Source: Dehalococcoidia bacterium
GTDB lineage: Bacteria > Chloroflexota > Dehalococcoidia > Lucifugimonadales > Australimonadaceae
NCBI GenBank assembly: GCA_034422795.1
Contig: DAOUJK010000022.1
Coordinates: 70,556 to 134,555, forward strand
Length of the DNA stretch: 64,000 bases
Reading direction: 5' to 3'
How positions within the stretch are numbered: position 1 is the stretch's first letter; every line of letters begins with the position of its first letter. This document shows positions 2,779 through 46,725 of the stretch, one piece after another. The position numbers and the translations under genes are program-made. A model generated the notes under the pieces. That model worked only from the letters and a program-made list of their open reading frames with translations. It did not search any database and was not told the origin of the DNA.

Positions 2779-2791
2779 GGATTCCATCGCC

Positions 2792-2820: not shown

Positions 2821-2849
2821 GATGCAGAATTCATCACCTGCGTGAAGCA

Positions 2850-3044
2850 ATGGATGGGAAGACCATCAACAAGGACATCTCTCGCCTGACCGTTACCCTG
2901 GGCGAAGGCCAAAGAGCCGCCTTGGAGTCGATAGCGAGCCAGAATGGCACAACGATTGCTTTCGTGGTTCGCTACGCGCTTCGTAGGTTCATCGAAGAAC
3001 ACGGAGAAAATCCGTTGACGCTAAGGTTCCCAAGTGAACAATAG
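2850..3044 (+). CDS. ribbon-helix-helix (CopG-family) DNA-binding protein, possible controller protein
   Basis: 64 aa. ISRLTVTLGEGQRAALESIASQNGTTIAFVVRYALRRFIEEH fits a beta-strand plus two helices (RHH pattern). It overlaps the MTase start by 11 nt. Confidence 0.7.
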   Translation: MDGKTINKDISRLTVTLGEGQRAALESIASQNGTTIAFVVRYALRRFIEEHGENPLTLRFPSEQ

Positions 3045-4089: not shown

Positions 4090-4120
4090 GTTCGACTTCG
4101 AACCAGAACCGAGGAATGGC

Positions 4121-4942: not shown

Positions 4943-4958
4943 GGGAGGTGCTGCAGTC

Positions 4959-6455: not shown

Positions 6456-6461
6456 GATGAG

Positions 6462-7700: not shown

Positions 7701-7779
7701 TCCGGGGAGGTCCACCCCTTGGGTATTGACAGACCCCTAAGCCACATCTCGAAGATGGTTCTACATGTGGGGAGAGACC

Positions 7780-8664
7780 CTATCGCATTGGAGGCTGGGA
7801 TAGCGGTAGTCCTCTAAATGGGTCGTTCTCCCATATATGTTTCACATATTCAAAGAGCCCTTCCACTGGCTTGCGTTCATGGTAGTAGAGGCCACTTAGT
7901 AACTGATCGCCTGCACGGGTGAGTACGATTTTGCCTGCACTGATCTGTTCCCCTCTTCTGAATGGCACAACGAGCTCCCGTCCATGGTAGATGGCATGAA
8001 CACTCCCAATGGGAGGTACAGTCAATAGATAGCCGAACCCCGAATAGTTTATTAGCCCCAGGTCTTCAAGTTGATTGGCGTAGTAGTAGTTCATCCCATG
8101 ATCCGTATAGATTTCGTCTGTGAGGTCAAATACCAGCACGCGATATCCACTTCCACCAATTGCGTCCCAAGCAAAGTCACACAGATTTTGGAACACTTGG
8201 ACATCACTGCTCTCCAGGTTAGCAACCAGATTAACGGTTGCACGGGAGAACGATCCCTGACGGTTGGCTTCGCCAGCGAGAATCCTGGCCCACAGCTGAT
8301 GCATCTGTTCATCTGACACAGTGCTGCACCGCTGAAAGAAGGTGGTGACCCAGTCGTCTTCCATGGTGACGGGGTCGGCATCGTCATTGAGGTGGGGTAG
8401 TGCCAGCGTGACGATGCTTTCGATGTTGCGTTGCTTTGCGACCTCCTCGTGAGCGAGTCGATTGGCAGCTCGTTGCAGCAACCCAGCGACCTCAACATCA
8501 GTATGGGCCTCAGCAACCCTCCGGATATGCTGAGCCTTCGCTTCGGCTTCAGCCATCCGGAGGGTTTGGCTGGGGTCGAAGTGTCGACCGATGGCGTTCG
8601 ACACTTTCTCTATCAGTAGAGTGGCTGGGCGCGACAGGCCAAAGACCTCTAATCCTTCTGCCAC
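7780..8664 (-). CDS. DUF2806-like protein
   Basis: The central segment DDWVTTFFQRCSTVSDEQMHQLWARILAGEANRQGSFSRATVNLVANLESSDVQVFQNLC matches my recollection of the DUF2806 signature. It is convergent with the upstream operon. Confidence 0.5.
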   Translation of the reverse strand: MAEGLEVFGLSRPATLLIEKVSNAIGRHFDPSQTLRMAEAEAKAQHIRRVAEAHTDVEVAGLLQRAANRLAHEEVAKQRNIESIVTLALPHLNDDADPVTMEDDWVTTFFQRCSTVSDEQMHQLWARILAGEANRQGSFSRATVNLVANLESSDVQVFQNLCDFAWDAIGGSGYRVLVFDLTDEIYTDHGMNYYYANQLEDLGLINYSGFGYLLTVPPIGSVHAIYHGRELVVPFRRGEQISAGKIVLTRAGDQLLSGLYYHERKPVEGLFEYVKHIWENDPFRGLPLSQPPMR

Positions 8665-8687
8665 CTGTGGTGCCTCCTAGCACACGG

Positions 8688-8987
8688 TTATTCCGCGTTC
8701 TTGCGCGGTCTGCCGCGCCTGCGTCCATCCGACGACCAGAAGTAGACCGTGGTCCCAGTGCGCCGGAACTCCAGTTTCGTTCCGAGCGCCGTCGCAGCTG
8801 CGTTCAGCCTGCGCCGAATCGCCTGCGTCGTCTCGCCCTCTCCCGCCTCCAGCTTCCCCGCCTCTCCCGCGGTCACCCGCTGGATGTAGCCGACGTACTC
8901 TTGCAGCAGCGCCGCGCGCTTGCCGGTTGCGCTCCGCGCGCGGGCCTCGCCGATCGGTAGTGTGCCGAACGTGGGCATCCTGTCCAC
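8688..8987 (-). CDS. small basic protein with C-terminal AT-hook-like motif
   Basis: 99 aa. Third-codon positions are strongly G/C-biased when read by eye. The C-terminus GRRRGRPRKNAE contains the RGRP AT-hook core. Confidence 0.55.
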   Translation of the reverse strand: MDRMPTFGTLPIGEARARSATGKRAALLQEYVGYIQRVTAGEAGKLEAGEGETTQAIRRRLNAAATALGTKLEFRRTGTTVYFWSSDGRRRGRPRKNAE

Positions 8988-27909: not shown

Positions 27910-28731
27910 ATGCCATACGAAGACCGGTTCGTGGACAACAACGGCGTTCGCATCCACTACGAGGTGGAGGAGGGGCCCGCGGAGTCGCCTGTCATCATCT
28001 TCGTGCACGGCATGGGCGGCAGCACGAAGGGCTGGCGGATGCACGGCTACCCGGAGAAGCTGCGCGACGAGTACAAGGTCGTCCTCATCGACTCGCGCGG
28101 GTTCGGCCAGAGCGACAAGATGAAGGACCCGGAGGACTACGGACGCCAGCAGAAGGTGTCCGACGTCACCGCCGTGCTCGACGACCTCGGCGTGGACAAG
28201 GCCTATTACTGGGGCTACTCCATGGGCGCAAGCATCGGCTGGGCGGTCGGCATGTTGGCCCCTGAGCGTTTCCACGGGCTCGTTCTCGGGGCCTACCCCG
28301 TGCTCTCACCGGAGGTGCCCGAGATCGACCGCGTGCGGTGGGAGGCACGCGCCAAGCTCATGCGCCTCGGCATGGACGTCTACATCGCCGCGATGGAGAT
28401 GGACCAAGGCCCCTTGGCGGAGGAGAACAAGGCGCGGCTGCTGGCGAACGACAAGGACGCCTACGCCGCACAGCAGATAGCCAACCTGAGTTGGGGAGCG
28501 CCGGACGAGGACATCCGCAATATGACTCTGCCCGCCCTCGTCTACTCCGGCACCGAGGACGAGTACCCCATGCCACGCAACCACGCGCTTACGAAGCGCT
28601 CCGCGTCGCTTGCGCCCAACGCGAAATTCCTGCCGCTGGAGGGCCACACGCACGCATCCGCCATGGCCTCGCCGGACGTGGTGATCCCCCACGTGCGCGA
28701 GTTCATCGCCATGGTCGAAGGCTCACGTTAG
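27910..28731 (+). CDS. alpha/beta hydrolase, tandem paralog 1 of 4
   Basis: IIFVHGMGGS and the nucleophile elbow WGYSMGASIG. AAGGAGCA RBS. Confidence 0.85.
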   Translation: MPYEDRFVDNNGVRIHYEVEEGPAESPVIIFVHGMGGSTKGWRMHGYPEKLRDEYKVVLIDSRGFGQSDKMKDPEDYGRQQKVSDVTAVLDDLGVDKAYYWGYSMGASIGWAVGMLAPERFHGLVLGAYPVLSPEVPEIDRVRWEARAKLMRLGMDVYIAAMEMDQGPLAEENKARLLANDKDAYAAQQIANLSWGAPDEDIRNMTLPALVYSGTEDEYPMPRNHALTKRSASLAPNAKFLPLEGHTHASAMASPDVVIPHVREFIAMVEGSR

Positions 28732-28758
28732 CAACGCCAACGCCTAAGGAGCAGCGTC

Positions 28759-29580
28759 ATGCCATACCAGGACCGGTTCGTCGATAACAACGGCGTCAGC
28801 ATCCACTACGAGGTGGAGGACGGGCCCGTGGAGGAGCCCGTCATCGTCTTCGTACATGGCATGGGCATGAGCACGAAGGACTGGCGGAACGCAGGCTACC
28901 CGGAGAAGCTGCGCAACGAGTTCAGGGTTGTCCTCATCGACTCGCGCGGGTTCGGCCAGAGCGACAAGCCGAAGGCCCCCACTGACTACGGGCGACCGCA
29001 GAAGGTGTCCGACATCACAGCGGTCCTGGACGACCTCGGCGTCGACAAGGCGTACTACTGGGGTTTCTCCATGGGTTCCAGCATCGGCTGGGCGGTCGGC
29101 ATGCTGGCGCCCAATCGGTTCCACGGCCTTATCCTCGGCGCATACCCCGTGCTCTCGCCGGACGTACCGGAGATCGACCGGGTGCGGTGGGAGGCGCGCG
29201 CCAAGCTCATGCGCCTCGGCATGGACGTCTACGTCGCCGCGATGGAGATGGACCAGGGCCCCTTGCCCGAGGACAGCCGGGACCGGCTGCTGTCGAACGA
29301 CAAGGATGCCTACGCTGCACAGCAGCTCGCCAACCTGGAGTGGGGCGCGCCGGACGAGGACATCGTCAACATGACGCTCCCCGCCCTTGTCTACTCAGGC
29401 ACCGACGACGACTACCCCATGCCGCGCAACCACGCGCTCACCAAGCGCTCTGCATCGCTTGCGCCCAACGCCAGGTTCCTGCCGTTGGATGGACACACGC
29501 ACATGTCCGCGTTCCTCGCAGCCGACCTGATGATCCCGCACGTGCGCGAGTTCATCGCCATGGTGGAGGACACGCGCTAG
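28759..29580 (+). CDS. alpha/beta hydrolase, tandem paralog 2 of 4
   Basis: Colinear with paralog 1 along its whole length (MPYQDRFVDNNGVSIHYEVEDG...). AAGGAGCA RBS. Confidence 0.85.
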   Translation: MPYQDRFVDNNGVSIHYEVEDGPVEEPVIVFVHGMGMSTKDWRNAGYPEKLRNEFRVVLIDSRGFGQSDKPKAPTDYGRPQKVSDITAVLDDLGVDKAYYWGFSMGSSIGWAVGMLAPNRFHGLILGAYPVLSPDVPEIDRVRWEARAKLMRLGMDVYVAAMEMDQGPLPEDSRDRLLSNDKDAYAAQQLANLEWGAPDEDIVNMTLPALVYSGTDDDYPMPRNHALTKRSASLAPNARFLPLDGHTHMSAFLAADLMIPHVREFIAMVEDTR

Positions 29581-29606
29581 AGCGCGCGAGGCAAGGAGCA
29601 ACCGCC

Positions 29607-30422
29607 ATGGCATTCGAAGACCGCTTCATCAACAACGACGGTGTCCGCATCCACTACGAGGTGAACGACGACGCACCGGACGACGCGCCTTCGCTCGTGC
29701 TCATGCACGGCATGGGCATGAGCACGAAGGACTGGCACGACGCCGGTTATGCAACCGTGCTCTCCGCCGATTTCCGGCTCATCCTCATCGACTCCCGCGG
29801 CTTCGGCCAGAGCGACAAGCTCACCGACCCCGCCGACTACGGACGCGCGCAGAAGGTGTCCGACGTCACTACCGTGCTGGACGACCTCGGCATCGAGAAG
29901 ACGTTCTACTGGGGCTACTCCATGGGCGCCAGCATCGGATGGGCGCTCGGCATGCTTGCTCCGCACCGTTTCCACGCGCTCGTTCTCGGCTCATACCCGG
30001 TCATCCCCCTGCCTGTCCCCGATTTCGACCGTGCCCGCTGGGAGGCCCGCGCCAAGATCATGCGCCTCGGCATGGACGTCTACGTCACCGCCATGGAGAT
30101 GGACGCCGGGCCTCTTCCGGATGCCGACCGCGAGCGGCTGCTGGCGAACGACAAGGACGCCTACGCCGCGCAGCAACTCGCCAACCTGGATTGGGGTGCG
30201 CCCGATGAGGACATCGTTAGCATGACGCTCCCCACGTTCGTCTACGCCGGCACGAAGGACAGGCGCAACCACGAGCCAGCCAGGCGGTGCGCGTCGCTCG
30301 CACCCAACGCGTCGTTCCTCTCGCTGCCGGACCACACGCACATGCAGGCGTTCCTGGCAGCGGACACAATGGTCCCCCACGTACGCGGGTTCATCGAGAG
30401 AGTTGGGACCCGCGTCGGCTGA
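29607..30422 (+). CDS. alpha/beta hydrolase, tandem paralog 3 of 4
   Basis: MAFEDRFINNDGVRIHYEVNDDAPDDAP...GYSMGASIG. Start at the internal ATG preceded by AAGGAGCA. Confidence 0.85.
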   Translation: MAFEDRFINNDGVRIHYEVNDDAPDDAPSLVLMHGMGMSTKDWHDAGYATVLSADFRLILIDSRGFGQSDKLTDPADYGRAQKVSDVTTVLDDLGIEKTFYWGYSMGASIGWALGMLAPHRFHALVLGSYPVIPLPVPDFDRARWEARAKIMRLGMDVYVTAMEMDAGPLPDADRERLLANDKDAYAAQQLANLDWGAPDEDIVSMTLPTFVYAGTKDRRNHEPARRCASLAPNASFLSLPDHTHMQAFLAADTMVPHVRGFIERVGTRVG

Positions 30423-30446
30423 CACTCGGGACCAGGGAGTAACACC

Positions 30447-31259
30447 ATGTCATTCCAAGACCGGTTCGTGGACAACGACGGCGTCCGCATCCACTACGAG
30501 GTGAACGACGACGCGCCGGACGACGCGCCTCCGCTCGTGCTCATGCACGGCATGGGCGGCAGTACGAAGAACTGGCACGACGCCGGTTATGCAACCGCGC
30601 TCTCCGGCGATTTCCGGCTCATCCTCATCGACTCCCGCGGCTTCGGTCAGAGCGACAAGCTCACCGACCCCGCCGACTATGGACGCGCGCAGAAGGTGTC
30701 GGACGTCACCGCTGTGCTGGACGACCTCGGCATCGAGAAAACGTTCTACTGGGGCTACTCCATGGGCGCCAGCATCGGATGGGCGCTCGGCATGCTTGCC
30801 CCGCACCGTTTCCATGCGCTCGTACTCGGCTCTTACCCCGTCATCCCCCTGCCCGTCCCTGAATTCGACCGCGCCCGATGGCAGGCCCGCGCGAAGATCA
30901 TGCGCCTCGGCATGGACGTCTACGTCACTGCACTGGAGATGGACGGGGGAGCACTCTCCGAGCGCCGGCGCGAGCGACTGCTGGCCAACGACAAGGAAGC
31001 CTACGCCGCGCAGCAGCTCGCCAACCTGGACTGGGGCACACCCGACGAGGACATCGTCAACATGACGCTCCCCACGTTCGTGTATGCGGGCACCAAGGAC
31101 ATCCGCAACCACGAGCCTGCCGAACGGTGTGCGTCGCTCGCACCCAACGCGTCGTTCCTCTCGCTGCCGGACCACACGCATACACAGGCGTTCGAGGTAG
31201 CGGACACGATGGTCCCCCACGTGCGGAAGTTCATCGCGGGAGTAAGGGCGTCGCTTTGA
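30447..31259 (+). CDS. alpha/beta hydrolase, tandem paralog 4 of 4
   Basis: MSFQDRFVDNDGVRIHYEVNDDAPDDAP... It is nearly identical to paralog 3 over long stretches. Confidence 0.85.
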   Translation: MSFQDRFVDNDGVRIHYEVNDDAPDDAPPLVLMHGMGGSTKNWHDAGYATALSGDFRLILIDSRGFGQSDKLTDPADYGRAQKVSDVTAVLDDLGIEKTFYWGYSMGASIGWALGMLAPHRFHALVLGSYPVIPLPVPEFDRARWQARAKIMRLGMDVYVTALEMDGGALSERRRERLLANDKEAYAAQQLANLDWGTPDEDIVNMTLPTFVYAGTKDIRNHEPAERCASLAPNASFLSLPDHTHTQAFEVADTMVPHVRKFIAGVRASL

Positions 31260-37563: not shown

Positions 37564-38826
37564 ATGCACGCGCCAGACCCTCAGACAGCCGCCTCCGCGA
37601 CGCAGGACCCCGTCTCCCGCCGGGCGCTCGACTATCCCGACTTCCGCATCCTGTGGTTCACCACCGGTCTCGTGGCGGGAGGCGTCTGGTTCCAGCAGGT
37701 CACGCTCGGCTGGCTCGCCTACGAGCTCACCGAAGACCCCCTGCAGGTCGCGGGCGTAGTGGGCGTGCGGACGCTTCCGTTGCTGCTGTCGCCGGTCACA
37801 GGGGTGATTGCCGACCGGGTCGACAGGCTGAAACTGCTGCTCGTAGACCAGGTGCTGGTCACGGTCCTGGTCTTCGGTTTCGCCCTCGTGCTGTTGAACG
37901 ACCTGCAGCAGCTGTGGCACCTGTATGTTTTCGCCGTGCTGTTCGGCACGCTGTGGGCGGCAAACAACCCGGTGCGCCAGGTGCTCATCGCGAACACCGT
38001 GCCTCGCGAGGCGCTGATGAACGCGACGGCGATGACCTCGATGTCGTTCAACATCATGCGGGCCGTCGGCCCGGCCATCGGCGGGTTCGTCATCGCCTTC
38101 TTCGGCCCGGGCATCAACTTCCTGATCCAGGGGTTCCTCTTCCTGATGGCGCTGGCAGTAGTGACGCGCATGCGGACGCCGTACTACACGGCGAACCGAG
38201 CGCACGCACGGGAGAGTTCTCCGCTGCAGAACCTCCAGGAGGGATTCGCTCGCGTCATCAGCGAGCCGACCACGCGCATCACGACCGCGATGACGTTCGG
38301 GCTGTCGATGACGATGATGGCGATGGTGTTCAACCAGCTTCCGGTGTACACCGCGGAGATACTCGGCAACGACGACGGAAGCCAGCTGGGCCTGCTCCTC
38401 ATGGCGATGGGGTTCGGAGGTTTCCTTAGGACGGCGTTGCTCGCGCTGCTCATGTCGACGCGCCGGAAGGGAGTCCTCGCCTCCGTAGCATTCGCGCTCT
38501 CAGCGGTCAGTGTCGTGGTCCTCTCGCAGGCGACGGTGCTGTGGCTCGCGATGCTTGCGCTGCTCCTCCAACAGATGTTCGTGCAGGTGGTGATGACGAC
38601 GAACATGACCGTCGTGCACACGATGACGTCAGACGACCTGCGGGGCCGCGTCATCGGCGTCTACCAGATGGAGATCGGCATGATGCCGTTCTGGGGGCTG
38701 GTCGCTGGCGCTCTCTCCAGGGCGTACGGCGTAGACAACGCCTTCCTCGTCGGGGGCATCGCAGGACTCGCGATCATCGGCGTTGCGACCGTCGCGCTAC
38801 CTCGCTACCGGCGGCTGGAGGTGTAG
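37564..38826 (+). CDS. MFS transporter (MFS_3 / enterobactin-exporter-like)
   Basis: FRILWFTTGLVAGGVWFQQVTLGWLAYELT. About 12 hydrophobic segments. Confidence 0.8.
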   Translation: MHAPDPQTAASATQDPVSRRALDYPDFRILWFTTGLVAGGVWFQQVTLGWLAYELTEDPLQVAGVVGVRTLPLLLSPVTGVIADRVDRLKLLLVDQVLVTVLVFGFALVLLNDLQQLWHLYVFAVLFGTLWAANNPVRQVLIANTVPREALMNATAMTSMSFNIMRAVGPAIGGFVIAFFGPGINFLIQGFLFLMALAVVTRMRTPYYTANRAHARESSPLQNLQEGFARVISEPTTRITTAMTFGLSMTMMAMVFNQLPVYTAEILGNDDGSQLGLLLMAMGFGGFLRTALLALLMSTRRKGVLASVAFALSAVSVVVLSQATVLWLAMLALLLQQMFVQVVMTTNMTVVHTMTSDDLRGRVIGVYQMEIGMMPFWGLVAGALSRAYGVDNAFLVGGIAGLAIIGVATVALPRYRRLEV

Positions 38827-38836
38827 CGGCACCCTC
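38779..38836. repeat. left copy of direct repeat flanking the sacsin-like insertion (authentic 3' end of MFS gene)
   Basis: GGCGTTGCGACCGTCGCGCTACCTCGCTACCGGCGGCTGGAGGTGTAG+CGGCACCCTC encodes ...GVATVALPRYRRLEV*. Confidence 0.75.
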
Positions 38837-39014
38837 ACCCCGGCCCTCCCTAGGGGGAGAGGGAGCAGAAATCCTCCACCAATGAGCGAGCGGACGCACA
38901 CCAATGAGCGCCTGCTGCTCGCTTTCGAGCGCGAATAACCCGGAATGAGCATGCCGCTTCACTCTCGCACACGGCGCCGACAGGAGCGGCCCGCTGAACC
39001 GGTCGAAAATTGTG

Positions 39015-39042
39015 TCTCATTTCTTCTCATTTAGTCTCATTT
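39015..39042. repeat. three 10-bp-phased copies of TCTCATTT
   Basis: Read directly at 39015-39022, 39025-39032 and 39035-39042, abutting the stop of the sacsin-like ORF. The complementary AATGAG core also occurs three times at 38881-38949. Confidence 0.8.
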
Positions 39043-41246
39043 CATTCCTGCGACCCATCCCCCGAGCGGGCCGGGCCCTGGTGCTCTCCCGCCGGTGGCG
39101 GCGCGTCGTCACCAACCAGCGTAGCCGACGCAGGCGCGACCGCACTTCGGCCCATAGAGGAGCGGAGGACGCTCGCATATCGGTCACTCACCCACACAAG
39201 CCTAGGCGTTTGCTTGGCTGCGGCGGCAAAACTATCCGCCTCGCGATCAATGGCTGAAGGGAGATAGGCGTCGGTGGGACGCGCGCTTACTACTCGGCGC
39301 CGTCCCCCCTCGTACACGTACGCTTCAATTGATATGGCGCGACCAACATTAGGCCCCAGAGTAGTTCGTTCGCCAGGATCGATTACCTCAAATGCAGCCC
39401 TGAGGGCCTGCACTTGCTCGTCGGTAAGCGGTAGTGCAAGAGCACGACCGGACTGGCCAGCTGCAGCAAGCCGACGAACCACAGCCTGATCATCTGGCTC
39501 ATTGAGCAGAGCCCCACATTTACGAAGCCATGTCATAACCGTGCGGGCAGCTTTGCTCTCTTTACGATGTGCAGGGTGAAGCAGAGTGACGATACCGAGC
39601 CGCTGCCCCAGTGGCGTGGTTTCTACTGCTAGGGCTTCGGGGGAATCTGAAGCTGGAGGAGTGAGGCGTCGCTCATCATCAGCAATCACGCATCGGAAAT
39701 CGAGCAACCGCTCCGTAAGCCCCTCGTCCAGTGCTGCTCCGACAAGCGCAATCGTAGCGTCCTCAGGTCTGGTTTGGTCATCCAGCAGAGCGAGCGCTTG
39801 CTCAACGCTCACCGGTTCAGGGAGGTCTGCGCCAGCGGCTCGCCAGCCGTCCAGCACTGAACGCCACTTACCCGCTTGGTCTCTGACTTGAACAGGGAGC
39901 GTTGCGGGAAGATCGGCCAAGCTCGCCGTTTCGGCCTCGGTCAAGACTCCTTCGAGTGGTGGCGCTTCCACCGCGAGTTGCGACAGGCTGACAAGTCCGA
40001 GGGAAGAGATATGAAACGAGACTCCAGAAGCAACACTTTGCCAAGCATGAGCGGTGACCGCAGCCGTAAGGGAATCGAGTATAGGCGACGCTGTATCTGC
40101 TTCAAGTGCGTCTTCCTGCGGCATCGCCAGCCATGCCGTTTGAGGGTCGCGGGAGAAGAGGTCGAGCGCAGCCTGCGACCAAAGTTCGGCGAGAAAAGGA
40201 ACCAAGGCTTTGTTCCATGCGGTGTCGGCGAAGCCCTGCCGGTTCGTAAGCGGGTCGAACTGAGCGTTCACAAACAGGGGAAGGCGCGTGGGTACTACTG
40301 GAAGCCCCGCGTAGACCTGCCCCTTACCAGAAGGCCAGAGAGGCAAAGCCACCGCGATTGGAGTGGTTGCACCAGTCGCCTTACGTGTACGCCTAACTTT
40401 CGCAGGCACCGGGACCTCAGCACTGTAAACCACCCATGAGCGTCCGTCGGTCGCTTCAGCGTAATGGCGCGACAAAGCCGCAGATGCCCAGGGTACAGCC
40501 GCTCCCTCCTGGTTTTGGCGCGCGAGAGCAAGTTCGCGAACCGAGTCTCCTTCAGAAGTCAGCAAGGTGATTCGTGAGACATAGCGCAAGAACAGCAATC
40601 CGGCGTCGCCCCATCTGCTGAGCCATTCCTCAATCTCATTCGACTCTACGGCCCCGGCCTCAAGAGGGATTCGCAGTGTGGTCCAGCCCGGCTCTTGGAA
40701 CTGGGGTGGAAGCGCGGTCGGGGCTATTGGCTCAATGGTGGGGTCACCGAGTTCCACATGGTATGGATGGCAGTGAACCTCAATCTTCATCGATAGCGAA
40801 CGAAGGGCCATGAGTCCAATCCCGAATCTGCCCACAGAGGCGATTTCGCTGCCCTTGGTGCTGAACCACGGGGTTGCTAATCCAAGCACATGCTTGAGGC
40901 GTATAGGGAGACCGTCATGGCTAATCAGGAGATCGGTTGGCCTCAGACACAACCGGATCTGTGAAGCCTCGACATCGTCAGCATTCTGAACAATCTCAGC
41001 AAGCCCCTGAAACCGGTCACTGGAGAGCATTTCCCCGCTGTCGCGGGCACCCTCCATCATATTCGCAGCGACGCCGGGGAGTTCTTCAAAGAGCTTACCC
41101 AGTCGCCGAACCGCTGCCTCAGCCGTTCGGAGGTCACTCGGTTCATATGCGGGTTCGAAGTTCTTGTCCTTCGTATCGAAAAGTTGCTCAGCGGCACTTT
41201 CCGCAAGCGCAATCTGGTCGGTGGCATTGGTCAGGGTATCCGGCAT
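39042..41246 (-). CDS. sacsin-like GHKL ATPase family protein (possibly C-terminally truncated)
   Basis: N-box LAEIVQNADDVEA, then ISHDGLPI, then VGRFGIGLMALRSLS. Start at MPDTLTNA (ATG at 41246) with a purine-rich RBS. Most of the gene is visibly AT-richer than its flanks. Confidence 0.75.
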   Translation of the reverse strand: MPDTLTNATDQIALAESAAEQLFDTKDKNFEPAYEPSDLRTAEAAVRRLGKLFEELPGVAANMMEGARDSGEMLSSDRFQGLAEIVQNADDVEASQIRLCLRPTDLLISHDGLPIRLKHVLGLATPWFSTKGSEIASVGRFGIGLMALRSLSMKIEVHCHPYHVELGDPTIEPIAPTALPPQFQEPGWTTLRIPLEAGAVESNEIEEWLSRWGDAGLLFLRYVSRITLLTSEGDSVRELALARQNQEGAAVPWASAALSRHYAEATDGRSWVVYSAEVPVPAKVRRTRKATGATTPIAVALPLWPSGKGQVYAGLPVVPTRLPLFVNAQFDPLTNRQGFADTAWNKALVPFLAELWSQAALDLFSRDPQTAWLAMPQEDALEADTASPILDSLTAAVTAHAWQSVASGVSFHISSLGLVSLSQLAVEAPPLEGVLTEAETASLADLPATLPVQVRDQAGKWRSVLDGWRAAGADLPEPVSVEQALALLDDQTRPEDATIALVGAALDEGLTERLLDFRCVIADDERRLTPPASDSPEALAVETTPLGQRLGIVTLLHPAHRKESKAARTVMTWLRKCGALLNEPDDQAVVRRLAAAGQSGRALALPLTDEQVQALRAAFEVIDPGERTTLGPNVGRAISIEAYVYEGGRRRVVSARPTDAYLPSAIDREADSFAAAAKQTPRLVWVSDRYASVLRSSMGRSAVAPASATLVGDDAPPPAGEHQGPARSGDGSQE

Positions 41247-41332
41247 AGCCTTCTCTTCAATTGTGGGTTTGGCGACGGGGGCAGAGGGATAGTATACGCG
41301 GCATGCTCCAACTTCCTCTCGTAGACCGCGTC

Positions 41333-41389
41333 GCCGTCGCCACCCTTGCGTTCCCGCGCTACCGACGATTGGAGCTGTAGCGGCCCCTC
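41333..41389. repeat. right copy of direct repeat: degenerate duplicate of the MFS gene 3' end
   Basis: GCCGTCGCCACCCTTGCGTTCCCGCGCTACCGACGATTGGAGCTGTAG+CGGCCCCTC would encode AVATLAFPRYRRLEL*. It is codon-aligned with 38779-38826 at 36 of 48 nt, including the stop codon. Confidence 0.75.
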
Positions 41390-41473
41390 GCTTGCTCTGG
41401 TACTGCGCAGGCAGAAAGAACGTGCTCGGGAGAGCGACGCGTATAATCGCGACAGCGCAGCGAAGGGGGACGC

Positions 41474-42778
41474 GTGGCATCGGACGCAGCGCCGGGCAGG
41501 CAAGGCAAGGGCGGCATCTTCTACGGCTGGTACATCGTGGCAGCTCTGCTGTTCATGACGTTCGTCTCCATCGGTTTCCGGCAGAGCTTCGGGTTGTTCC
41601 TTCCGTCGTGGACGAAAGAGTTCGGTGTATCGGTCTCCTACATGTCCACCGTCGCGTTCGTCGGATGGATGGTGAACGGCATCGCCCAGCCGGTGGTGGG
41701 CGGGCTCGCCGACCGTTATGGAGCGCGCGTCGTGGCCTGTGTGAGCGTCGCAGTGCTTGGCGTGAGCACGCTGGCCATGGCGTTCTCGCTCAACATCCTG
41801 ATGCTGGCTTTCTTCTACGCAACGCTTGCATCGTTCTCGAACGCCGGAGCGATGTTCACGCCCATCACGCCACTCATAGCGCGCTGGTTCGTGCGACGGC
41901 GCGGCGCGGCTCTGAGCATCATCACCGCCGGCGGCTCCGGCGGCGCGATGCTCCTGGTGCCGTTCTCAGCCTTCCTGCTGGAACTCTTCAACTGGCGGGT
42001 CGCTCTTGCAGTCGTCGCAGGAATCATGCTGGTGCTCGTCCTGCCGCTGGTGCTGGTGGTGGTCCGGAACCAACCGGGGCCGATGGGGCTGAGGCCGGAC
42101 GGCGACGCACCAGGGACCGAGGATGGCCAGCAGAGGCAACGACTCGTCGATGGTCCGCTCACCGTATCCCACTGGCGGCAGGCATACCGCTCTTCGCCCA
42201 TGTGGCAACTCACGCTCACCTATGTGGTCTGCGGCGTGACGACTGCGATCATCGCCGTCCACTTCGTGTCGTTCGCAAACACGGAGGGGATCTCGGAGAC
42301 GACTGCGGCGCTTGCCTTCGCGCTGCTGAGCTTCTCCAACGTGGCTAGCGTGCTCGCGGTGGGTTTCCTGCTCTCCGACCGTCTTCAGCGGAAGGACACG
42401 CTTGCCATGGTCTACGCGGTCCGTGGGCTGGGCTTCCTCGCGCTGCTCGTCATGCCAACCCCCATGGGCCTGTGGGCGTTCGCGGTCGTCGCAGGCAGCT
42501 CGTGGCTGGCGACCGTGCCGCAGACGAGCGCGCTCGCCGCGGAGATCTACGGCATCCGCAATTCGGGGTCCATCACGGGGATGCTGACCATGGTGCACAT
42601 GTGCGCCGGGGCCGTCGCCGTCCTTGCCGCAGGTTTCACCTACGACTATTTCCTCTCCTACGACCCGGTCTGGGTGGTGTGCGTGGTGATGCTGGCAGGG
42701 GCCTCGCTGATGGCGTGGAGGGTGCGCGAGCGGGAGGTCTCAGCACGCTACATGCCCATGCGGCTCGCGGAAGCCTAG
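41474..42778 (+). CDS. MFS transporter (oxalate/formate antiporter-like)
   Basis: GTG start with a GAAGGGGGA RBS. GIFYGWYIVAALLFMTFVSIGFRQSFGLFLPSW. Confidence 0.8.
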   Translation: MASDAAPGRQGKGGIFYGWYIVAALLFMTFVSIGFRQSFGLFLPSWTKEFGVSVSYMSTVAFVGWMVNGIAQPVVGGLADRYGARVVACVSVAVLGVSTLAMAFSLNILMLAFFYATLASFSNAGAMFTPITPLIARWFVRRRGAALSIITAGGSGGAMLLVPFSAFLLELFNWRVALAVVAGIMLVLVLPLVLVVVRNQPGPMGLRPDGDAPGTEDGQQRQRLVDGPLTVSHWRQAYRSSPMWQLTLTYVVCGVTTAIIAVHFVSFANTEGISETTAALAFALLSFSNVASVLAVGFLLSDRLQRKDTLAMVYAVRGLGFLALLVMPTPMGLWAFAVVAGSSWLATVPQTSALAAEIYGIRNSGSITGMLTMVHMCAGAVAVLAAGFTYDYFLSYDPVWVVCVVMLAGASLMAWRVREREVSARYMPMRLAEA

Positions 42779-42799
42779 GAGAGAAGCGGGGGCTGGGGC

Positions 42800-42982
42800 A
42801 TGCGCGCACATCACTCGGAGCCAACGGACTCGGAGTTGCTGGAATGGCTCGTCCATACCGTGGACTCTATCCTCGGGCAAGGGCCGCTGGTGATGGTGGC
42901 GCTCATCGCCATAGTGGTGCTGCTGATCCCGCTGGCGATAGCCGTCCTGGCGCTCCGCAGACGCGGAGGGTCTCAGCCGTAG
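42800..42982 (+). CDS. small single-pass membrane protein
   Basis: 60 aa with the hydrophobic segment LVMVALIAIVVLLIPLAIAVLAL followed by RRRG. Confidence 0.45.
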   Translation: MRAHHSEPTDSELLEWLVHTVDSILGQGPLVMVALIAIVVLLIPLAIAVLALRRRGGSQP

Positions 42983-43043
42983 GCGAGTCCAGTACGCTTC
43001 GGGGCAGAAGACCGTGGGGCGAAGGCTCGACTATGATTAAGCC

Positions 43044-43748
43044 ATGGCATGGCTATTCGGGTCGTCCAAACGAGCGCTCAGGCAGAGGGTCGCACGGCAG
43101 CACAATGGAACGCTCTGCCAGGCGCCAGACGGCGCCACTTTCGTAGTCAGCGCTCGGGGCCGGTGGAATCTCGTTTTCGACTTCGACACGCCCGAGGGCC
43201 CCGCTCCGATCCCGCTATTCGGTCAGCGCCAGGCGACGCGCATCGGGGTGCCTTTCACGCCCCGCGGCGAGTTCGCCTGGACGCTGCGGCGCCGTCCCAT
43301 CGTGGGAGACGCCATCGCCAGGCAGCGTCGAAAGTTGGAGCGTGAGGGAGCGGACGCCCTGGAGGAGTTCGTCCGCAAGCTACAGTCCGAACTCAACCCC
43401 CCTTCCGTACCCATGGGCTATGGCGATTTCGACTACGAGTTCAACATCGAAACCAACGACGAGGACAGGATTCGTGACCTCTTCGCCGATCCCGACCTCC
43501 GTCGCTCCCTCCAGGCCCTGCCTTCCGTGTCGTTCAAGGCAACGCAAGACGACGAGTGGTTCTACTGGGTGTTCGAGGAGCAGACCGATAACCTGGCCAT
43601 CCTCTACTGTCAACTGGCCGGAACAGTGGACGACGACGCTCTGCTCGAGGACCTCTCGGACCTCCTGGAGGCCATCATAGTGCGGCTGGCGGCGATGGGA
43701 ATCGCGGAGCCGACCCGCCCCGGCTTGTTCCTCGGGACAGGCACGTGA
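43044..43748 (+). CDS. hypothetical protein
   Basis: 234-aa ORF with protein-like composition. No motif recognised. Confidence 0.5.
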   Translation: MAWLFGSSKRALRQRVARQHNGTLCQAPDGATFVVSARGRWNLVFDFDTPEGPAPIPLFGQRQATRIGVPFTPRGEFAWTLRRRPIVGDAIARQRRKLEREGADALEEFVRKLQSELNPPSVPMGYGDFDYEFNIETNDEDRIRDLFADPDLRRSLQALPSVSFKATQDDEWFYWVFEEQTDNLAILYCQLAGTVDDDALLEDLSDLLEAIIVRLAAMGIAEPTRPGLFLGTGT

Positions 43749-43775
43749 CCGGGCCGAGTGCGGGGCCCGGAACCG

Positions 43776-45044
43776 TCAGGGCGACTCAACGGCACGCGCG
43801 CTGCGCCGGGGAGGCCTCGTGAAGAACACCAGAGCGCTGACTGACAACCAACAGACCGCGACCAGACTGAACGCGCCCATATAGCTGCCCTGGTTGTCGC
43901 GGAGCGTGGCAAGCATCAGCGGCGACGCGGCGTTCGACGCCGTCATGAAAGGCCGCATCATGCCACGTATCCCACCGATGTGGTCGCGGCCGAAATGGTC
44001 CGCGACCGTAAGGGCGTGGAGTTGGTAGAAGCCGGGTTGGGTCAGCCCCTGGGTCGCGGCCCACACGAACAGCATCCACGGATGGCCGACAACCAGAACG
44101 AGCACAACGCTCAACCCGGTCAGTCCCGCCTGGCAGGTGAACACGTAGCGGAGTGGGAAGCGGCTGGACGCGGTCCCCCAGATGAAGCGATTGGCGACCG
44201 CACAAACGCCATACACCATCAGGACGCCTGCGCCTATCTCTGCACCGAATCCACGGTCCTCCATGAACGGCAGCCACTGGACCTGGAACCCTGAGAGTCC
44301 AAGCGTCGCCACGAGGCCCGCCGTTGAGAGCATCCAGAAAGAGGATGTACCCAACGCCTCGCGCCGGGTGAGGCCCGGCCCCTCAGGCGCGACCTCTCGC
44401 GCAGCCTCCCGCTCTTGCGCCGGGGAACCGCCGTTGTCGGGCTTGAGACCCATGCTCTCCGGACTCGTGCGGACCAGCAGCATCAGAGGCGCTATCACCG
44501 CGATGACGCCGAGCCCGGTCCAGAACCAGGCCATACGCCATCCAACGGCGGCGATGAGCAGGATGATTATGGGAGGGAATACCAGGATGCCCAAGGGTGA
44601 ACCTACGTTGGCCCACATCAATGCCTGGGGGCGTCGGCGTACGAACCACTTGACGACGATCGCATCGAGCACTCCTACGCTCAACAAGGCGCCCAGCGAG
44701 CCGAGGACCCCGAATGCCATGTAGTACTGGAACGGCGTCTCTACCCACGTCACCAGGACGAAGGACAGGCCGGAGATGACGGTGCCCAGCGGCAGCATGA
44801 CACGAGGCAGCCACCTGTGGTCGGCCAGAGGACCCAGGAATGGGCCCAGGATGCCTCCGGCCAGCACCCGGAGCGTCAGCGCGCCGAATACCGTAGCCCT
44901 GGTCCAACCCAGATCGTCGTGCATCGGTCCGGCGAAGACGCTGCTCGCGAAGTGGGCCCCTCCCGTTTGGAATGCGCTGTTGACCGCTGCGAGAAACACG
45001 ATGACCCAGCCATAGAACGGTAGCCGTTTCGCAACTGCGTCCAT
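43776..45044 (-). CDS. MFS transporter
   Basis: LPFYGWVIVFLAAVNSAFQTGG... About 12 hydrophobic segments. Confidence 0.8.
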   Translation of the reverse strand: MDAVAKRLPFYGWVIVFLAAVNSAFQTGGAHFASSVFAGPMHDDLGWTRATVFGALTLRVLAGGILGPFLGPLADHRWLPRVMLPLGTVISGLSFVLVTWVETPFQYYMAFGVLGSLGALLSVGVLDAIVVKWFVRRRPQALMWANVGSPLGILVFPPIIILLIAAVGWRMAWFWTGLGVIAVIAPLMLLVRTSPESMGLKPDNGGSPAQEREAAREVAPEGPGLTRREALGTSSFWMLSTAGLVATLGLSGFQVQWLPFMEDRGFGAEIGAGVLMVYGVCAVANRFIWGTASSRFPLRYVFTCQAGLTGLSVVLVLVVGHPWMLFVWAATQGLTQPGFYQLHALTVADHFGRDHIGGIRGMMRPFMTASNAASPLMLATLRDNQGSYMGAFSLVAVCWLSVSALVFFTRPPRRSARAVESP

Positions 45045-45063
45045 GTCGGCCTCGCAGCGCCTC

Positions 45064-46374
45064 TCATCCCGGCGAAGCCGGTGACCAGGTCTTCCGCCTG
45101 GGGCGGCGGGCGGCGAGGAAGAAGAAGCCCGCGAAGAACGCCCCCACGACGTAGACCATGTGTATGGGTTCGTAGCTTCCCGTGAGCCGGAAGGCGAATG
45201 CGGTGACGAGCGGCCCCAGCGCCATCGCGGGCGTGACGAGCAGAACGGTGAAGCCCGTGATCGCGCCGACGTGCCTGCGGCCGAAATAGTCCGGCCACGC
45301 CTGCGACTGGAGCTGCTGCGAGCCGCCGATGGCGAGGCCGATCGGCAACGCAGCAGCGAAGAGGGTGGCGGGCGTGTCGGCCAGGACGTAGAGCGCGATC
45401 GAGAGGGAGTAGCCGAAGCCCCAGAGTGTCAGGCCGGCATGGATGCCGAAACGAGCGGCGATATAGCCCCAGAACGGCCGTCCCAGGAGCGCGCCGAAGC
45501 CGAAGAAGGCGAACGCGCTCGACGCGAACCGGAACGCGAGCCCTTCGTCCATGAAGTAGAACACCATGTTGGCGATAACGCCGGTGGCGGGGAAGCCGGT
45601 GAGCATGAGCGAGACCACGATGAGCCAGAGCGTTCGCGTGCGTACGGCCTCCCGCAGCGTCCAGCTGTCCTCGTCCGATACACCGCGCGATGGACCGCGC
45701 AGCGCGGCCGGCGCCACGTCTGACCGACCGCCGTCGGGGAGTTGCCCGTGGTCCTCCGGCCTGCGCCGAACGATGAGCCAGACGAGCGGGGCGAGGATGC
45801 ATATCTCGACGACACCGAGAACGCCCCAGCCGGCCCGCCAGGAGGTCTCTTCGATGAGGATGGCGAAGACCGGGACCATGGTGAAGCCAAAGACCGCGCG
45901 CCCACCGCTGGACCAGGCGAACGCGGCAGCCCGGCGGCGCACGAACCAGTTCGCGATCGCCGTTCGCGGCCCCACCACCTCCAGCCCCGTTCGCGCGGCG
46001 CCGACCCCGATGCCAAGCAGCGCGTAGTACGCCCAGGGGACGCTCGTGAACGCCAGCAGTACGAGGCAGGCGCCGCCGAACAGGGCGCTGAGCGTCATAC
46101 CGAGCCGTGCGCCGCTCCTGTCGAACAGCGGGCCGAGCACCATGCCGAGCCCGGCGGAGACGAATGTGGCGACAGTGAGCGCGCCGGTGAGCATCGTGCG
46201 GCTCCAGCCGAGGTCGTTCTCCATCGGTACGACGAGCAGGCCGAAGAGGTAGCTGGTGGCGGCGCCATGGGTGAAGAGCGCGAGGAAGGAGACGCCGACT
46301 ATCCACCATCCGCGGAAGGACGGGTAGAGCGTGAGGCGGCGGGTGGGCGTGGTGCTGCTCATGGGAGGGTTCAT
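45064..46374 (-). CDS. MFS transporter
   Basis: Start at the internal Met (MNPPMSSTTPTRRLTLYPSFRGWWIVGVSFLALF...). The upstream part of the ORF crosses a repeat array and is unlikely to be coding. Confidence 0.75.
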   Translation of the reverse strand: MNPPMSSTTPTRRLTLYPSFRGWWIVGVSFLALFTHGAATSYLFGLLVVPMENDLGWSRTMLTGALTVATFVSAGLGMVLGPLFDRSGARLGMTLSALFGGACLVLLAFTSVPWAYYALLGIGVGAARTGLEVVGPRTAIANWFVRRRAAAFAWSSGGRAVFGFTMVPVFAILIEETSWRAGWGVLGVVEICILAPLVWLIVRRRPEDHGQLPDGGRSDVAPAALRGPSRGVSDEDSWTLREAVRTRTLWLIVVSLMLTGFPATGVIANMVFYFMDEGLAFRFASSAFAFFGFGALLGRPFWGYIAARFGIHAGLTLWGFGYSLSIALYVLADTPATLFAAALPIGLAIGGSQQLQSQAWPDYFGRRHVGAITGFTVLLVTPAMALGPLVTAFAFRLTGSYEPIHMVYVVGAFFAGFFFLAARRPRRKTWSPASPG

Positions 46375-46413
46375 TCTTGCACAGGTTGTGGAGGCTGCCA
46401 CGGGACGGCGCCG

Positions 46414-46574
46414 ATCAAGGTGGCCAATGCCGCGTGAATCTGGCCACCTTGATGGCCGCGTTACGAGTGAATCGGACCTTACGATCTGGCCACCTTGGCC
46501 ACCTTGATGTGGGCGTTTCCAAGGCCGTGGTCTGCTTCCTATATCAAGGTGGCCAAGGTGGCCAACGAATTCAC
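46414..46574. repeat. nested inverted-repeat array built from the TTGGCCACCTTGAT unit
   Basis: ATCAAGGTGGCCAA at 46414-46427 faces TGGCCACCTTGAT at 46441-46453. TGGCCACCTTGGCCACCTTGAT at 46487-46508 faces ATCAAGGTGGCCAAGGTGGCCAA at 46543-46565. GTGAATC/GAATTCAC elements flank them. Confidence 0.85.
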
Positions 46575-46725
46575 TAGTTCGGGACTCACTCATAGACCGC
46601 GTTGATGGCAACGGGACCAGGCTATAGACGCAGTCTATGGCTGGTGCAGGGCGCGTAGTCATGCCTCCAGCGTAGCTGATGCGGGGTCGACCGGGTAAGA
46701 GGCAGATGTCACAGTGGCGACAGGG

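What the first reader, a model, noticed from the sequence alone, without database searches (positions are those of the whole stretch)
38779..41389. ~2.5-kb insertion carrying a sacsin-like GHKL ATPase, flanked by a duplicated 3' end of the MFS gene
Seen: the last 48 nt plus stop of the MFS gene (38779-38826, ...GVATVALPRYRRLEV*) recur codon-aligned at 41333-41380 (AVATLAFPRYRRLEL*). They match at 36 of 48 nt, including the TAG and ~9 nt beyond, with weaker similarity further upstream. Between the copies lies one AT-richer gene for a 734-aa protein with QNADD/GRFGIG GHKL motifs.

Established: integrative elements that target a gene's 3' end leave such att-like direct repeats.

Inference: this is a single-gene cargo island with no integrase. 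The ATPase may be truncated, because I see no C-terminal nuclease-type domain. It could be a stand-alone defence-type gene.
Basis: partly seen in the sequence, partly recalled or inferred. Interest (0 to 1): 0.7.

Follow-up and report, generated by a model that had tools for sequence, protein, structure and literature searches.

The report
Truncated Tiamat defence gene insertion
A foreign phage-defence gene of the Tiamat (TmtA) family sits between two conserved transporter genes of an uncultured Dehalococcoidia bacterium, has lost the half that carries its nuclease, and leaves an orphan copy of the neighbouring gene's end; this is ordinary defence-gene gain and decay, with one unexplained detail in how it inserted.

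Summary
A 57-nt direct repeat (38777-38833 and 41331-41387, 77% identical, about 14 SD above shuffles) brackets about 2.5 kb. That DNA is absent from the same site in 19 related Dehalococcoidia genomes, where the MFS_3 gene is followed after 33-86 nt by the next MFS gene.

The 734-aa protein (39042-41246, minus strand) is the N-terminal half of TmtA, the single protein of the Tiamat anti-phage system (PADLOC E=2e-222, profile positions 5-706 of 1486). It keeps a sacsin/Hsp90-like GHKL ATPase. It lacks about 800 residues, including the C-terminal D...ExK nuclease-type domain.

A related metagenome contig (L032) carries the full-length gene at the same site. There it is flanked by an 82-nt, 99% identical duplication of the intergenic spacer, and a 98% identical genome (L005) is empty.

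No integrase, transposase or tRNA lies in or near either insert, and the duplicated segments differ between the two genomes. The right-hand copy in the window is the original gene end. The two copies differ mostly at synonymous sites, as two alleles of a functional gene would.

Verdict: a decayed, probably inactive Tiamat cassette. The insertion, the repeat and the truncation are real. The integrase/att reading is neither shown nor excluded.

The parts
37564..38826 (+). MFS_3-family transporter gene (420 aa), intact. Its last 50 nt are repeat copy 1.
   Evidence: Pfam MFS_3 E=4e-44. Same length as its orthologues in relatives.
38777..38833 (+). Direct repeat copy 1: the functional 3' end of the MFS_3 gene, its TAG stop and 7 nt beyond.
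   Evidence: Alignment with the closest relative, L099, runs 17 nt past the stop codon, to 38843.
38834..39131 (.). About 300 nt of unassigned filler between the MFS_3 stop region and the point where TmtA homology ends. It contains six AATGAG motifs: 38881, 38903 and 38944 on the plus strand, and 39016, 39026 and 39036 on the minus strand. It overlaps the non-homologous 3' tail of the TmtA reading frame (39042-39131).
   Evidence: No significant match to the TmtA 3' part, to the spacers of relatives or to Rfam. The motif cluster has P of about 8e-12. Bases 39043-39143 are 73% identical over 104 nt to intergenic DNA of L019 and L020.
39042..41246 (-). Truncated tmtA reading frame (734 aa). Residues 1 to about 700 are TmtA. 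The last ~34 residues are read from unrelated DNA.
   Evidence: PADLOC TmtA model PDLC03968, E=2e-222, protein residues 7-705 on profile positions 5-706 of 1486. NCBIfam sacsin N-terminal ATP-binding domain, 62 bits against a cut-off of 50. Nucleotide homology to the full-length gene of L032 is 77.7% over 39157-41335, and by global alignment it ends at about 39132. Predicted structure has pLDDT 78.6, is folded to about residue 655 and disordered over 662-734. Best fold matches are Hsp90/TRAP1, GyrB and sacsin SR1.
41247..41314 (-). Upstream region of tmtA: ribosome-binding site and a TATACT -10-like hexamer preceded by GCG. This is the right end of the cassette shared with L032.
   Evidence: Homology to L032 continues from the ATG to CCAACTT at 41308-41314. 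The hexamer was read from the sequence. The consensus promoter scan did not flag it.
41315..41330 (.). 16 nt (CCTCTCGTAGACCGCG) of unassigned junction sequence.
   Evidence: Read. L032 has 3 nt at the corresponding place.
41331..41387 (+). Direct repeat copy 2: the orphan, displaced original 3' end of the MFS_3 gene.
   Evidence: It is followed by the native spacer. Its peptide AVATLAFPRYRRLEL is 14 of 15 identical to the C-terminus in L007.
41381..41473 (+). Native MFS_3-to-MFS_1 spacer with the conserved GCGTATAATCGCG promoter and the ribosome-binding site of the downstream gene.
   Evidence: A TATAAT or TACAAT hexamer in a conserved GC-rich context is present in the spacers of all 17 relatives shown. 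This segment is 93% identical to L099.
41474..42778 (+). Downstream MFS_1 transporter gene (434 aa), intact.
   Evidence: Pfam MFS_1 E=1e-42. It lies directly after the MFS_3 gene in relatives.

Best explanation
What it is (shown): a decayed single-gene Tiamat (TmtA) anti-phage cassette in a strain-variable slot between two conserved MFS transporter genes of a sponge-type Dehalococcoidia genome assembled from a metagenome.

How it arrived (inferred): the cassette is a promoter plus the tmtA reading frame, with no mobility gene. It entered by a duplication-generating, Campbell-type event, in which the incoming DNA carried its own copy of the junction segment around the MFS_3 stop codon. That copy (copy 1) now completes the MFS_3 gene. 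The resident gene end (copy 2) was displaced 2.55 kb downstream, where it still sits in front of the native spacer and the promoter of the next gene. The two copies are different alleles, so the incoming copy came from another lineage. The recombination was done by functions supplied in trans: either an unidentified site-specific recombinase or the host's own recombination and repair.

What happened next (shown): about 2.4-2.5 kb of tmtA, from codon ~700 onward, was lost and about 300 nt of unrelated DNA stands in its place. The remaining protein keeps the sacsin/Hsp90-like GHKL ATPase and middle region but lacks the C-terminal D...ExK (DUF3883-like) nuclease-type domain. It is therefore most likely inactive as a Tiamat system, and is a recent pseudogene.

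Confidence by step: truncated TmtA, about 0.95. True insertion with copy 2 as the original gene end, about 0.9. Non-functional as a defence system, about 0.75. Campbell-type entry without a resident recombinase, about 0.5.
For: Family and truncation:
- PADLOC TmtA E=2e-222, covering only profile positions 5-706 of 1486.
- The full-length relative P0051, encoded in L032, covers profile positions 275-1485.
- L032 holds 2.53 kb that are missing from the window. Homology ends at about 39132.
- The C-terminal domain of relatives has invariant D1140, E1150 and K1152. A distant C-terminal homologue carries PF13020, DUF3883.

Insertion:
- Seventeen genomes from the GTDB-based genome collection (one representative per species), plus L099 and L100, have the order epimerase, amidohydrolase, MFS_3, spacer of 33-86 nt, MFS_1.
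- The conserved spacer and promoter follow copy 2, not copy 1.
- G+C is 56-61% in the insert against 64-67% in the flanks.

Same cassette elsewhere:
- In L032 the insert is 4607 nt, essentially tmtA alone, flanked by an 82-nt repeat that is 99% identical.
- L005 is 97.8-98.6% identical to L032 in both flanks and is empty.
- The right end of the cassette is shared with the window up to CCAACTT.

No mobility genes.

The two copies are alleles:
- They share 38 of 51 nt, which lies within the range of 35-51 seen between the orthologous gene ends of different species.
- pS is 0.53 and pN is 0.15 (Fisher P=0.012).

The truncation is recent, or the fragment is still under constraint:
- dN/dS between the window and L032 is 0.22, with no frameshift or stop in 700 codons.
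- All columns that are invariant in the family, including E84, N88, D90, D91 and G139-G144, are retained.
Against: - No recombinase, circular form or attP-like junction was seen.
- The two copies are only 77% identical and share at most 9 identical nt in a row. That is too little for RecA-dependent recombination, so this step needs either a site-specific enzyme or later overwriting of one flank.
- L032 and the window duplicate different segments: -5 to +77 against -50 to +10 (or +23) relative to the end of the MFS_3 stop codon. Either these were two separate events, or each lost part of a longer (~130 nt) duplication.
- Synonymous divergence of TmtA between the window and L032 (0.81) exceeds that of the flanking genes (0.50-0.58), which argues against simple co-inheritance.
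- The origin of the ~300 nt filler is unknown.
- Retained ATPase motifs and a low dN/dS leave room for a residual function.
Confidence: 0.6

Rival explanations
1. Remnant of an integrase-driven integrative island, comparable to an integrase-less 'CIME'. An element targeting the 3' end of the MFS_3 gene carried a replacement gene end, an integrase and tmtA as cargo. A later deletion removed the integrase together with the 3' half of tmtA. The AATGAG arrays in the filler would be leftover arm-type integrase binding sites.
For: - Direct repeats bracket an insertion that relatives lack.
- The pair of a replacement gene end and an orphan gene end differs mostly at synonymous sites. From my own knowledge, this resembles e14 and phage 21 integrated at the icd gene of E. 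coli.
- A cluster of six AATGAG motifs lies next to copy 1, three of them at exact 10-nt spacing. That looks like an array of protein-binding sites.
- The deletion starts just beyond this filler.
Against: - No integrase was found in the window's locus, in L032, or in any of the 30 or more related loci.
- In L032 the tmtA stop codon directly abuts the duplicated target, so there is no room for a lost integrase module.
- The duplicated segments differ between the two occupied sites.
- The two copies share no core longer than 9 nt.
Confidence: 0.2
2. Import by recombination with a related lineage that already carried tmtA downstream of its MFS_3 gene. There would be a homologous crossover in or upstream of the MFS_3 gene and an illegitimate joint between the tmtA upstream region and position -50 of the recipient's MFS_3 gene. 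The repeat would then simply be the donor's and the recipient's gene ends side by side. Alternatively, a repair or template-switch event duplicated the target on the spot.
For: - The two copies are as different as the orthologous gene ends of separate species, and each is closer to some orthologue than to the other copy. Copy 1 shares 45 of 51 nt with L002, copy 2 shares 44 of 51 with L015, and the two copies share 38 of 51.
- MFS_3 is only 81% identical in protein sequence to L007, while MFS_1 is 94% identical to L007. The nearest relative changes from block to block along the region.
- No recombinase is needed.
Against: - Once L099 is included, both flanks have the same nearest relative: 87% identity on the left and 90% on the right. 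The mosaic signal is therefore weak.
- The last 51 nt of the gene evolve too fast for alleles to be assigned.
- Two independent untargeted events in the same ~80-nt spacer, in the window and in L032, would be an unlikely coincidence.
Confidence: 0.15
3. The 734-aa protein is a functional short form: an ATPase-only TmtA derivative that acts as a sensor, a regulator or a dominant-negative partner, rather than a pseudogene.
For: - The reading frame is intact, and all family-invariant ATPase residues are kept.
- dN/dS is 0.22.
- The fold is confident to about residue 655.
- Its own promoter-like upstream region is retained.
- Database relatives of 728 and 733 aa exist.
Against: - The 728-aa and 733-aa relatives are full-length genes interrupted by frame breaks in low-coverage long-read contigs.
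- The last ~34 residues of the window protein are read from unrelated DNA and are predicted to be disordered.
- No partner gene lies downstream: only about 215 nt separate the stop codon from the MFS_3 gene.
- dN/dS between two sequences mostly reflects the time before the truncation.
Confidence: 0.1
4. The repeat is a chance match, or the locus is an assembly artefact.
For: The sequences are GC-rich and the repeat is short. The source is a metagenome-assembled scaffold.
Against: - The alignment scores about 14 SD above shuffles.
- The repeat is codon-aligned and includes the stop codon.
- An independent assembly (L032) shows tmtA at the same site.
- Synteny continues on both sides.
Confidence: 0.02

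Closest known systems
Tiamat anti-phage system (single protein TmtA; Millman et al. 2022, as cited in PMC12926258; PADLOC model PDLC03968)
   Same: The N-terminal ~700 residues match the TmtA profile at E=2e-222. The ATPase is of the same sacsin-like GHKL type. Like Tiamat, it is a single chromosomal gene; 10.1101/2023.03.30.534874 reports that Tiamat is almost always chromosomal in Actinobacteria.
   Different: Only profile positions 5-706 of 1486 are present. The C-terminal part is missing, including the PD-(D/E)XK-type domain that places Tiamat among the single-gene nuclease systems (10.1101/2024.10.26.620412). The host is an uncultured Dehalococcoidia. The closest protein is 74% identical and the next closest are 60% or less.
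Sacsin repeat region and Hsp90/TRAP1 GHKL ATPases
   Same: NCBIfam sacsin N-terminal ATP-binding domain. Weak sequence matches to the sacsin SR1 structures 5v44-5v47. Best fold matches are TRAP1 and Hsc82 (E=2e-8), GyrB and sacsin SR1 (TM-score 0.53 on the target).
   Different: Sequence identity is 11-15%. This is a bacterial defence context, not a chaperone. The resemblance is in fold and ATP-binding motifs only.
Elements that integrate into the 3' end of a protein-coding gene and bring a replacement end (e14 and phage 21 at icd of E. coli), and integrase-less derivatives flanked by att sites (CIMEs of the ICESt1/ICESt3 family). Recalled from my own knowledge, not tested here.
   Same: A functional replacement gene end plus a displaced orphan end form a direct repeat around foreign DNA. 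The differences between the copies are mostly synonymous. There is no integrase inside the island.
   Different: No integrase-bearing partner element is known for this site. No identical core was found. A second occupied genome duplicates a different segment. The insert there is a single gene with no room for lost modules.
Defence-gene hotspots between conserved core genes (for example the Pseudomonas island hotspots that hold Tiamat; PMC12629846)
   Same: Presence and absence vary at a fixed slot between conserved genes. A defence gene is the cargo. Decayed copies are found.
   Different: Here the slot holds one gene only, in a metabolic and transporter neighbourhood rather than inside a larger genomic island. 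The insert is also bounded by long (57-82 nt) duplications of the target.

Membership tests
Tiamat (TmtA) | Significant match to a TmtA profile | tested here: met
   PADLOC PDLC03968, E=2e-222, 739 bits.
Tiamat (TmtA) | N-terminal sacsin/Hsp90-like GHKL ATPase with conserved ATP-binding motifs | tested here: met
   NCBIfam NF047352, 62 bits against a cut-off of 50. The invariant residues E84, N88, D90, D91 and G139-G144 are retained. Fold matches to Hsp90, GyrB and sacsin.
Tiamat (TmtA) | Full-length protein of about 1,500 aa, including the C-terminal PD-(D/E)XK (DUF3883-like) domain | tested here: not met
   Only profile positions 5-706 of 1486 are covered. The window lacks 2.53 kb that L032 has. 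The D...ExK domain seen in relatives was not detected in the window.
Tiamat (TmtA) | Protection against phage on expression | not testable with these tools
   Needs an experiment.
Integrase-mediated integrative island, or CIME | Direct repeats bounding DNA that is absent from the same site in relatives | tested here: met
Integrase-mediated integrative island, or CIME | Integrase or other recombinase gene within or next to the island, or a known partner element at the same site | tested here: not met
   No such Pfam family among the genes of the 21-kb locus, nor among the genes called on the L032 contig. The tblastn comparison shows only the syntenic genes in the related loci.
Integrase-mediated integrative island, or CIME | An identical core sequence shared by both repeats | tested here: inconclusive
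   The longest identical runs are 9 nt (TGTAGCGGC) and 8 nt (CGCTACCG). This could serve as a core or could be chance within a homologous segment.
Integrase-mediated integrative island, or CIME | The same attachment boundaries in independent occupied sites | tested here: not met
   The window duplicates -50 to about +10 around the MFS_3 stop. L032 duplicates -5 to +77.
Transposon, IS or MITE | Terminal inverted repeats, a short target duplication and a transposase | tested here: not met
   No inverted repeats at the ends of the insert. No transposase. The duplications are 57-82 nt long.
tRNA-targeting genomic island | A tRNA or tmRNA gene at one boundary | tested here: not met
   The nearest tRNA genes are at 20405 and 50411.

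The most novel reading that the evidence does not exclude
The tmtA cassette (promoter plus reading frame, no recombinase) is a mobile unit of its own. It has entered the junction between the MFS_3 and MFS_1 genes at least twice, each time with a long target duplication that overlaps the MFS_3 stop codon: 57-73 nt in the window and 82 nt in L032. This would be a recombinase-free or trans-mobilised way for a single defence gene to move. Candidate routes are excision and re-entry of a circle through its flanking repeats, or a site-specific enzyme encoded elsewhere.
Probability: 0.12. Interest if true: 0.65.

Novelty: new member of a known kind. Interest (0 to 1): 0.33.

Why it matters
This locus shows gain and decay of a defence gene in an uncultured, sponge-associated Dehalococcoidia lineage. 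All three states are on record: the empty site, the occupied site with an intact gene (L032), and the occupied site with a half-deleted gene (the window).

It is a caution for annotation. The gene scores very strongly as Tiamat, yet it lacks the half that carries the presumed effector domain.

The unusual point is that a single gene with no mobility function is bounded by 57-82 nt duplications of its target in two species. If that reflects a general mechanism, it would help explain how single-gene defence systems move outside recognisable mobile elements.

Tried and rejected
- I looked for similarity between the two repeat copies further upstream. There is none beyond 41331.
- I tested whether the ~300 nt filler is a degraded TmtA 3' part, using DNA alignment to L032, tblastn with TmtA C-termini and a profile of 19 C-termini. 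None was significant. Only a 9-residue motif, SARSLVEDF against the consensus SAKSLVYDF, lies next to a stop codon at 38850-38852 (E=0.076). I kept this as a possibility only.
- I tested whether the filler is a shortened copy of the spacer. It is not significant against 17 spacers (z of 2.1 or less).
- Rfam gave no match over 38500-41700, and there is no tRNA nearby.
- I tested the piece that resembles L019 and L020 as a possible repeated element. Only three copies were found in about 1 Mb of related loci, and a single-sequence nhmmer search does not recover them.
- Scans of viral contigs for the TCTCATTT array and for the GC-rich piece gave nine matches that I did not inspect or follow up, and none, respectively.
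- I tested whether ~730 aa is a natural split point of TmtA. I rejected this: the 728-aa and 733-aa relatives are full-length genes with frame breaks.
- I looked for flanking direct repeats around 15 other tmtA loci. There are none apart from L032, so the repeats belong to this site and not to the gene family.
- I looked for closer relatives of the cassette in metagenome contigs. The first scan found none and the second found only loci at 56% identity or less.
- I looked for a conspecific genome through MFS_3 homologues. The best is 89% identical, so the decisive comparison of alleles within one species could not be made.
- A donor-and-recipient mosaic of the two flanks looked plausible. It weakened once L099 was included.

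Full report
**Source and setting**

The window belongs to a 447-kb metagenome scaffold (ENA ERZ23495130, scaffold_36). Its nearest relatives are Dehalococcoidia/Chloroflexota genomes assembled from metagenomes. From my own knowledge of their bin names (not tested here), several of these appear to be sponge-symbiont bins.

The local gene order is epimerase (minus strand), amidohydrolase (minus), MFS_3 transporter 37564-38826 (plus), a 734-aa gene 39042-41246 (minus), and MFS_1 transporter 41474-42778 (plus).

**Check of the observation**

- The two 48-nt stretches match at 36 of 48 positions.
- The repeat finder reports a 57-nt direct repeat, 38777-38833 and 41331-41387, at 77% identity.
- The local alignment scores 53, against 20.6 +/- 2.3 for shuffles.
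- Both copies are in frame and end in TAG.
- There is no further similarity upstream of 41331.
- The DNA between the copies has 56-61% G+C, against 64-67% in the flanks.

**It is an insertion, and copy 2 is the original gene end**

A scan of the species-representative genome collection with the MFS_3 protein returned 30 loci.

- In 17 of them the order is epimerase, amidohydrolase, MFS_3, then directly MFS_1. The spacer between the last two genes is 33-86 nt.
- That spacer contains a conserved promoter-like block (consensus GCGTATAATCGCG; a few genomes have TACAAT) and a ribosome-binding site.
- Two further contigs found through the protein database, L099 and L100, are also empty. L099 is the most similar relative: MFS_3 is 89% identical in protein sequence, and the flanks are 87-90% identical in DNA.
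- In the window this conserved spacer follows copy 2 (41381-41473), not copy 1.

Copy 2 is therefore the displaced original 3' end of the MFS_3 gene. Copy 1 now completes that gene, which has the normal length of 420 aa.

**Identity of the gene**

- Pfam gives only a sub-threshold sacsin hit.
- The PADLOC library places the protein in TmtA, the single protein of the Tiamat defence system. E=2e-222, with residues 7-705 aligned to profile positions 5-706 of 1486.
- NCBIfam recognises the sacsin N-terminal ATP-binding domain above its cut-off.
- An AlphaFold model built on 12 homologues has pLDDT 78.6 and pTM 0.70. It is folded to about residue 655 and disordered over 662-734.
- Its best PDB matches are Hsp90/TRAP1, the GyrB ATPase region and sacsin SR1. 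A sequence search of the PDB finds only sacsin SR1, weakly.

Tiamat is listed among the single-gene systems that contain a PD-(D/E)XK nuclease domain (10.1101/2024.10.26.620412). A 2026 review groups it with systems described as largely uncharacterized (PMC12926258).

**The gene is truncated**

The closest homologue, P0051, is 74% identical. It lies on contig L032 in the same place and orientation, between the MFS_3 and MFS_1 orthologues. It covers TmtA profile positions 275-1485.

- Window 39157-41335 aligns to L032 at 77.7% DNA identity. L032 has another 2.53 kb between that block and the MFS_3 stop.
- A global alignment puts the end of homology at about 39132, which is codon ~700.
- The last ~34 residues of the window's reading frame are read from unrelated DNA.
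- The missing part contains a domain with invariant D1140, E1150 and K1152 across 19 C-termini. One distant homologue of that domain carries PF13020, DUF3883. More distant plasmid-borne relatives of the window's N-terminal region are annotated as DUF3883 proteins.
- Database relatives of 728 and 733 aa are not natural short forms. Their contigs encode the whole protein with frame breaks.

**State of the remnant**

All family-invariant residues of the ATPase are present. dN/dS against L032 is 0.22 over 446 codons, with no internal stop. The truncation is therefore recent, or the fragment retains some function. Without about 800 residues, including the nuclease-type domain, it is unlikely to work as Tiamat.

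**How it got there**

There is no integrase, transposase or tRNA in the 21-kb neighbourhood, and there are no inverted repeats at the ends of the insert.

L032 gives the clearest picture:
- The insert is 4607 nt, essentially tmtA and about 70 nt upstream of it.
- It is bounded by an 82-nt direct repeat that is 99% identical.
- The repeat runs from the last 5 nt of the MFS_3 gene (TGTAG), through the whole spacer, to the first 5 nt of the MFS_1 gene (GTGGC). The tmtA stop codon directly abuts the left copy.
- L005 is 97.8-98.6% identical to L032 on both sides and has the empty site. The insertion is therefore polymorphic within one species.

The window shares the right end of the cassette with L032, up to CCAACTT at 41308-41314. 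It duplicates a different segment, though: -50 to about +10 around the MFS_3 stop, or perhaps to +23 judging by similarity to the L099 spacer.

Fifteen other tmtA loci show no flanking repeats. They lie in defence islands, next to IS elements, or as lone genes.

**The two copies in the window are alleles**

- They share 38 of 51 nt. That lies inside the range of 35-51 (mean 41.5) seen between the orthologous gene ends of different species.
- The differences are concentrated at synonymous sites: pS 0.53, pN 0.15, Fisher P=0.012.
- The amino-acid states of copy 2 are those of real orthologues; it is 14 of 15 identical to L007.

Most of the divergence therefore arose while both sequences belonged to working genes. 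One copy came from another lineage together with the insert. This fits three scenarios:
- a circle that carried a foreign allele of the junction;
- recombinational import from a lineage that already held the cassette.

The data do not separate these. The 77% identity and the 9-nt maximum identical run argue against plain homologous recombination between the two copies. The tight boundaries in L032 argue against a lost integrase module. Two occupied sites in one ~80-nt spacer argue against untargeted events. Synonymous divergence of tmtA (0.81) exceeds that of the flanking genes (0.50-0.58), so simple vertical co-inheritance is also unlikely.

**The filler, 38834-39131**

Its origin is unknown.
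- It has no significant similarity to the TmtA 3' part, to spacers or to Rfam families.
- It holds six AATGAG motifs within 161 nt: three on the plus strand, and three on the minus strand at exact 10-nt spacing. Only 0.04 are expected.
- A 104-nt piece is 73% identical to intergenic DNA in L019 and L020.
- A minus-strand peptide next to a stop codon at 38850-38852 resembles the extreme C-terminal TmtA motif (E=0.076). If this is real, the deletion is internal to tmtA, and the stop codon abuts the target as it does in L032.

**Verdict**

The finding is real, and its descriptive part is right. The gene is a truncated member of a known defence family. The insertion and the orphan gene end are well supported by empty and occupied sites. 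The 'integrative element with att repeats' reading is only partly supported. Interest is modest. The one point worth following is the recombinase-free, repeat-bounded single-gene cassette.

Noticed in passing
window 1900-8700: A separate low-GC island (51-59% against 64-70% elsewhere). It holds a CBASS-type oligonucleotide cyclase (1933-2778, PADLOC E=1.5e-78), a type II DNA methyltransferase (3034-4089), a HATPase_c_3 protein (4848-6455) and a DUF2806/Abi_alpha protein (7780-8664). It looks like a defence island.
   Followed up: partly
window 38881-39041: Six AATGAG motifs within 161 nt: three on the plus strand, and three on the minus strand as TCTCATTT at exact 10-nt spacing. The whole 64-kb window has 17. 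This may be an array of protein-binding sites of unknown origin.
   Followed up: partly
window 39043-39143; L019 4724-4825; L020 3975-4038: A GC-rich stretch of about 100 nt at the tmtA truncation point is 73-75% identical to intergenic DNA downstream of the epimerase gene in two more distant relatives. No other copies were found in about 1 Mb of loci.
   Followed up: partly
L098 7001-9658: Another truncated tmtA (885 aa), sitting as a lone gene between respiratory-complex genes and an NMT1-family gene on a 3.1-Mb Dehalococcoidia-type contig. Decay of tmtA seems to recur in this group.
   Followed up: no
L033 10001-14563; L034 10001-14512: Full-length tmtA genes interrupted by frame breaks near codon 700-730, the same region as the window's breakpoint. 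The contigs are low-coverage long-read assemblies, so these may be sequencing errors.
   Followed up: partly
window about 27910-31259: Four tandem paralogous alpha/beta-hydrolase genes of 270-273 aa each (gene list).
   Followed up: no
window 41474-46662: A cluster of MFS_1 transporter genes (41474-42778, 43776-45044 and 45064-46662), followed by three EamA genes. One small gene (43044-43748, 234 aa, no Pfam family) was found by tblastn only in L007 among the genome-collection loci; L099 and L100 have a 235-236-aa gene and matching DNA at the corresponding place.
   Followed up: no
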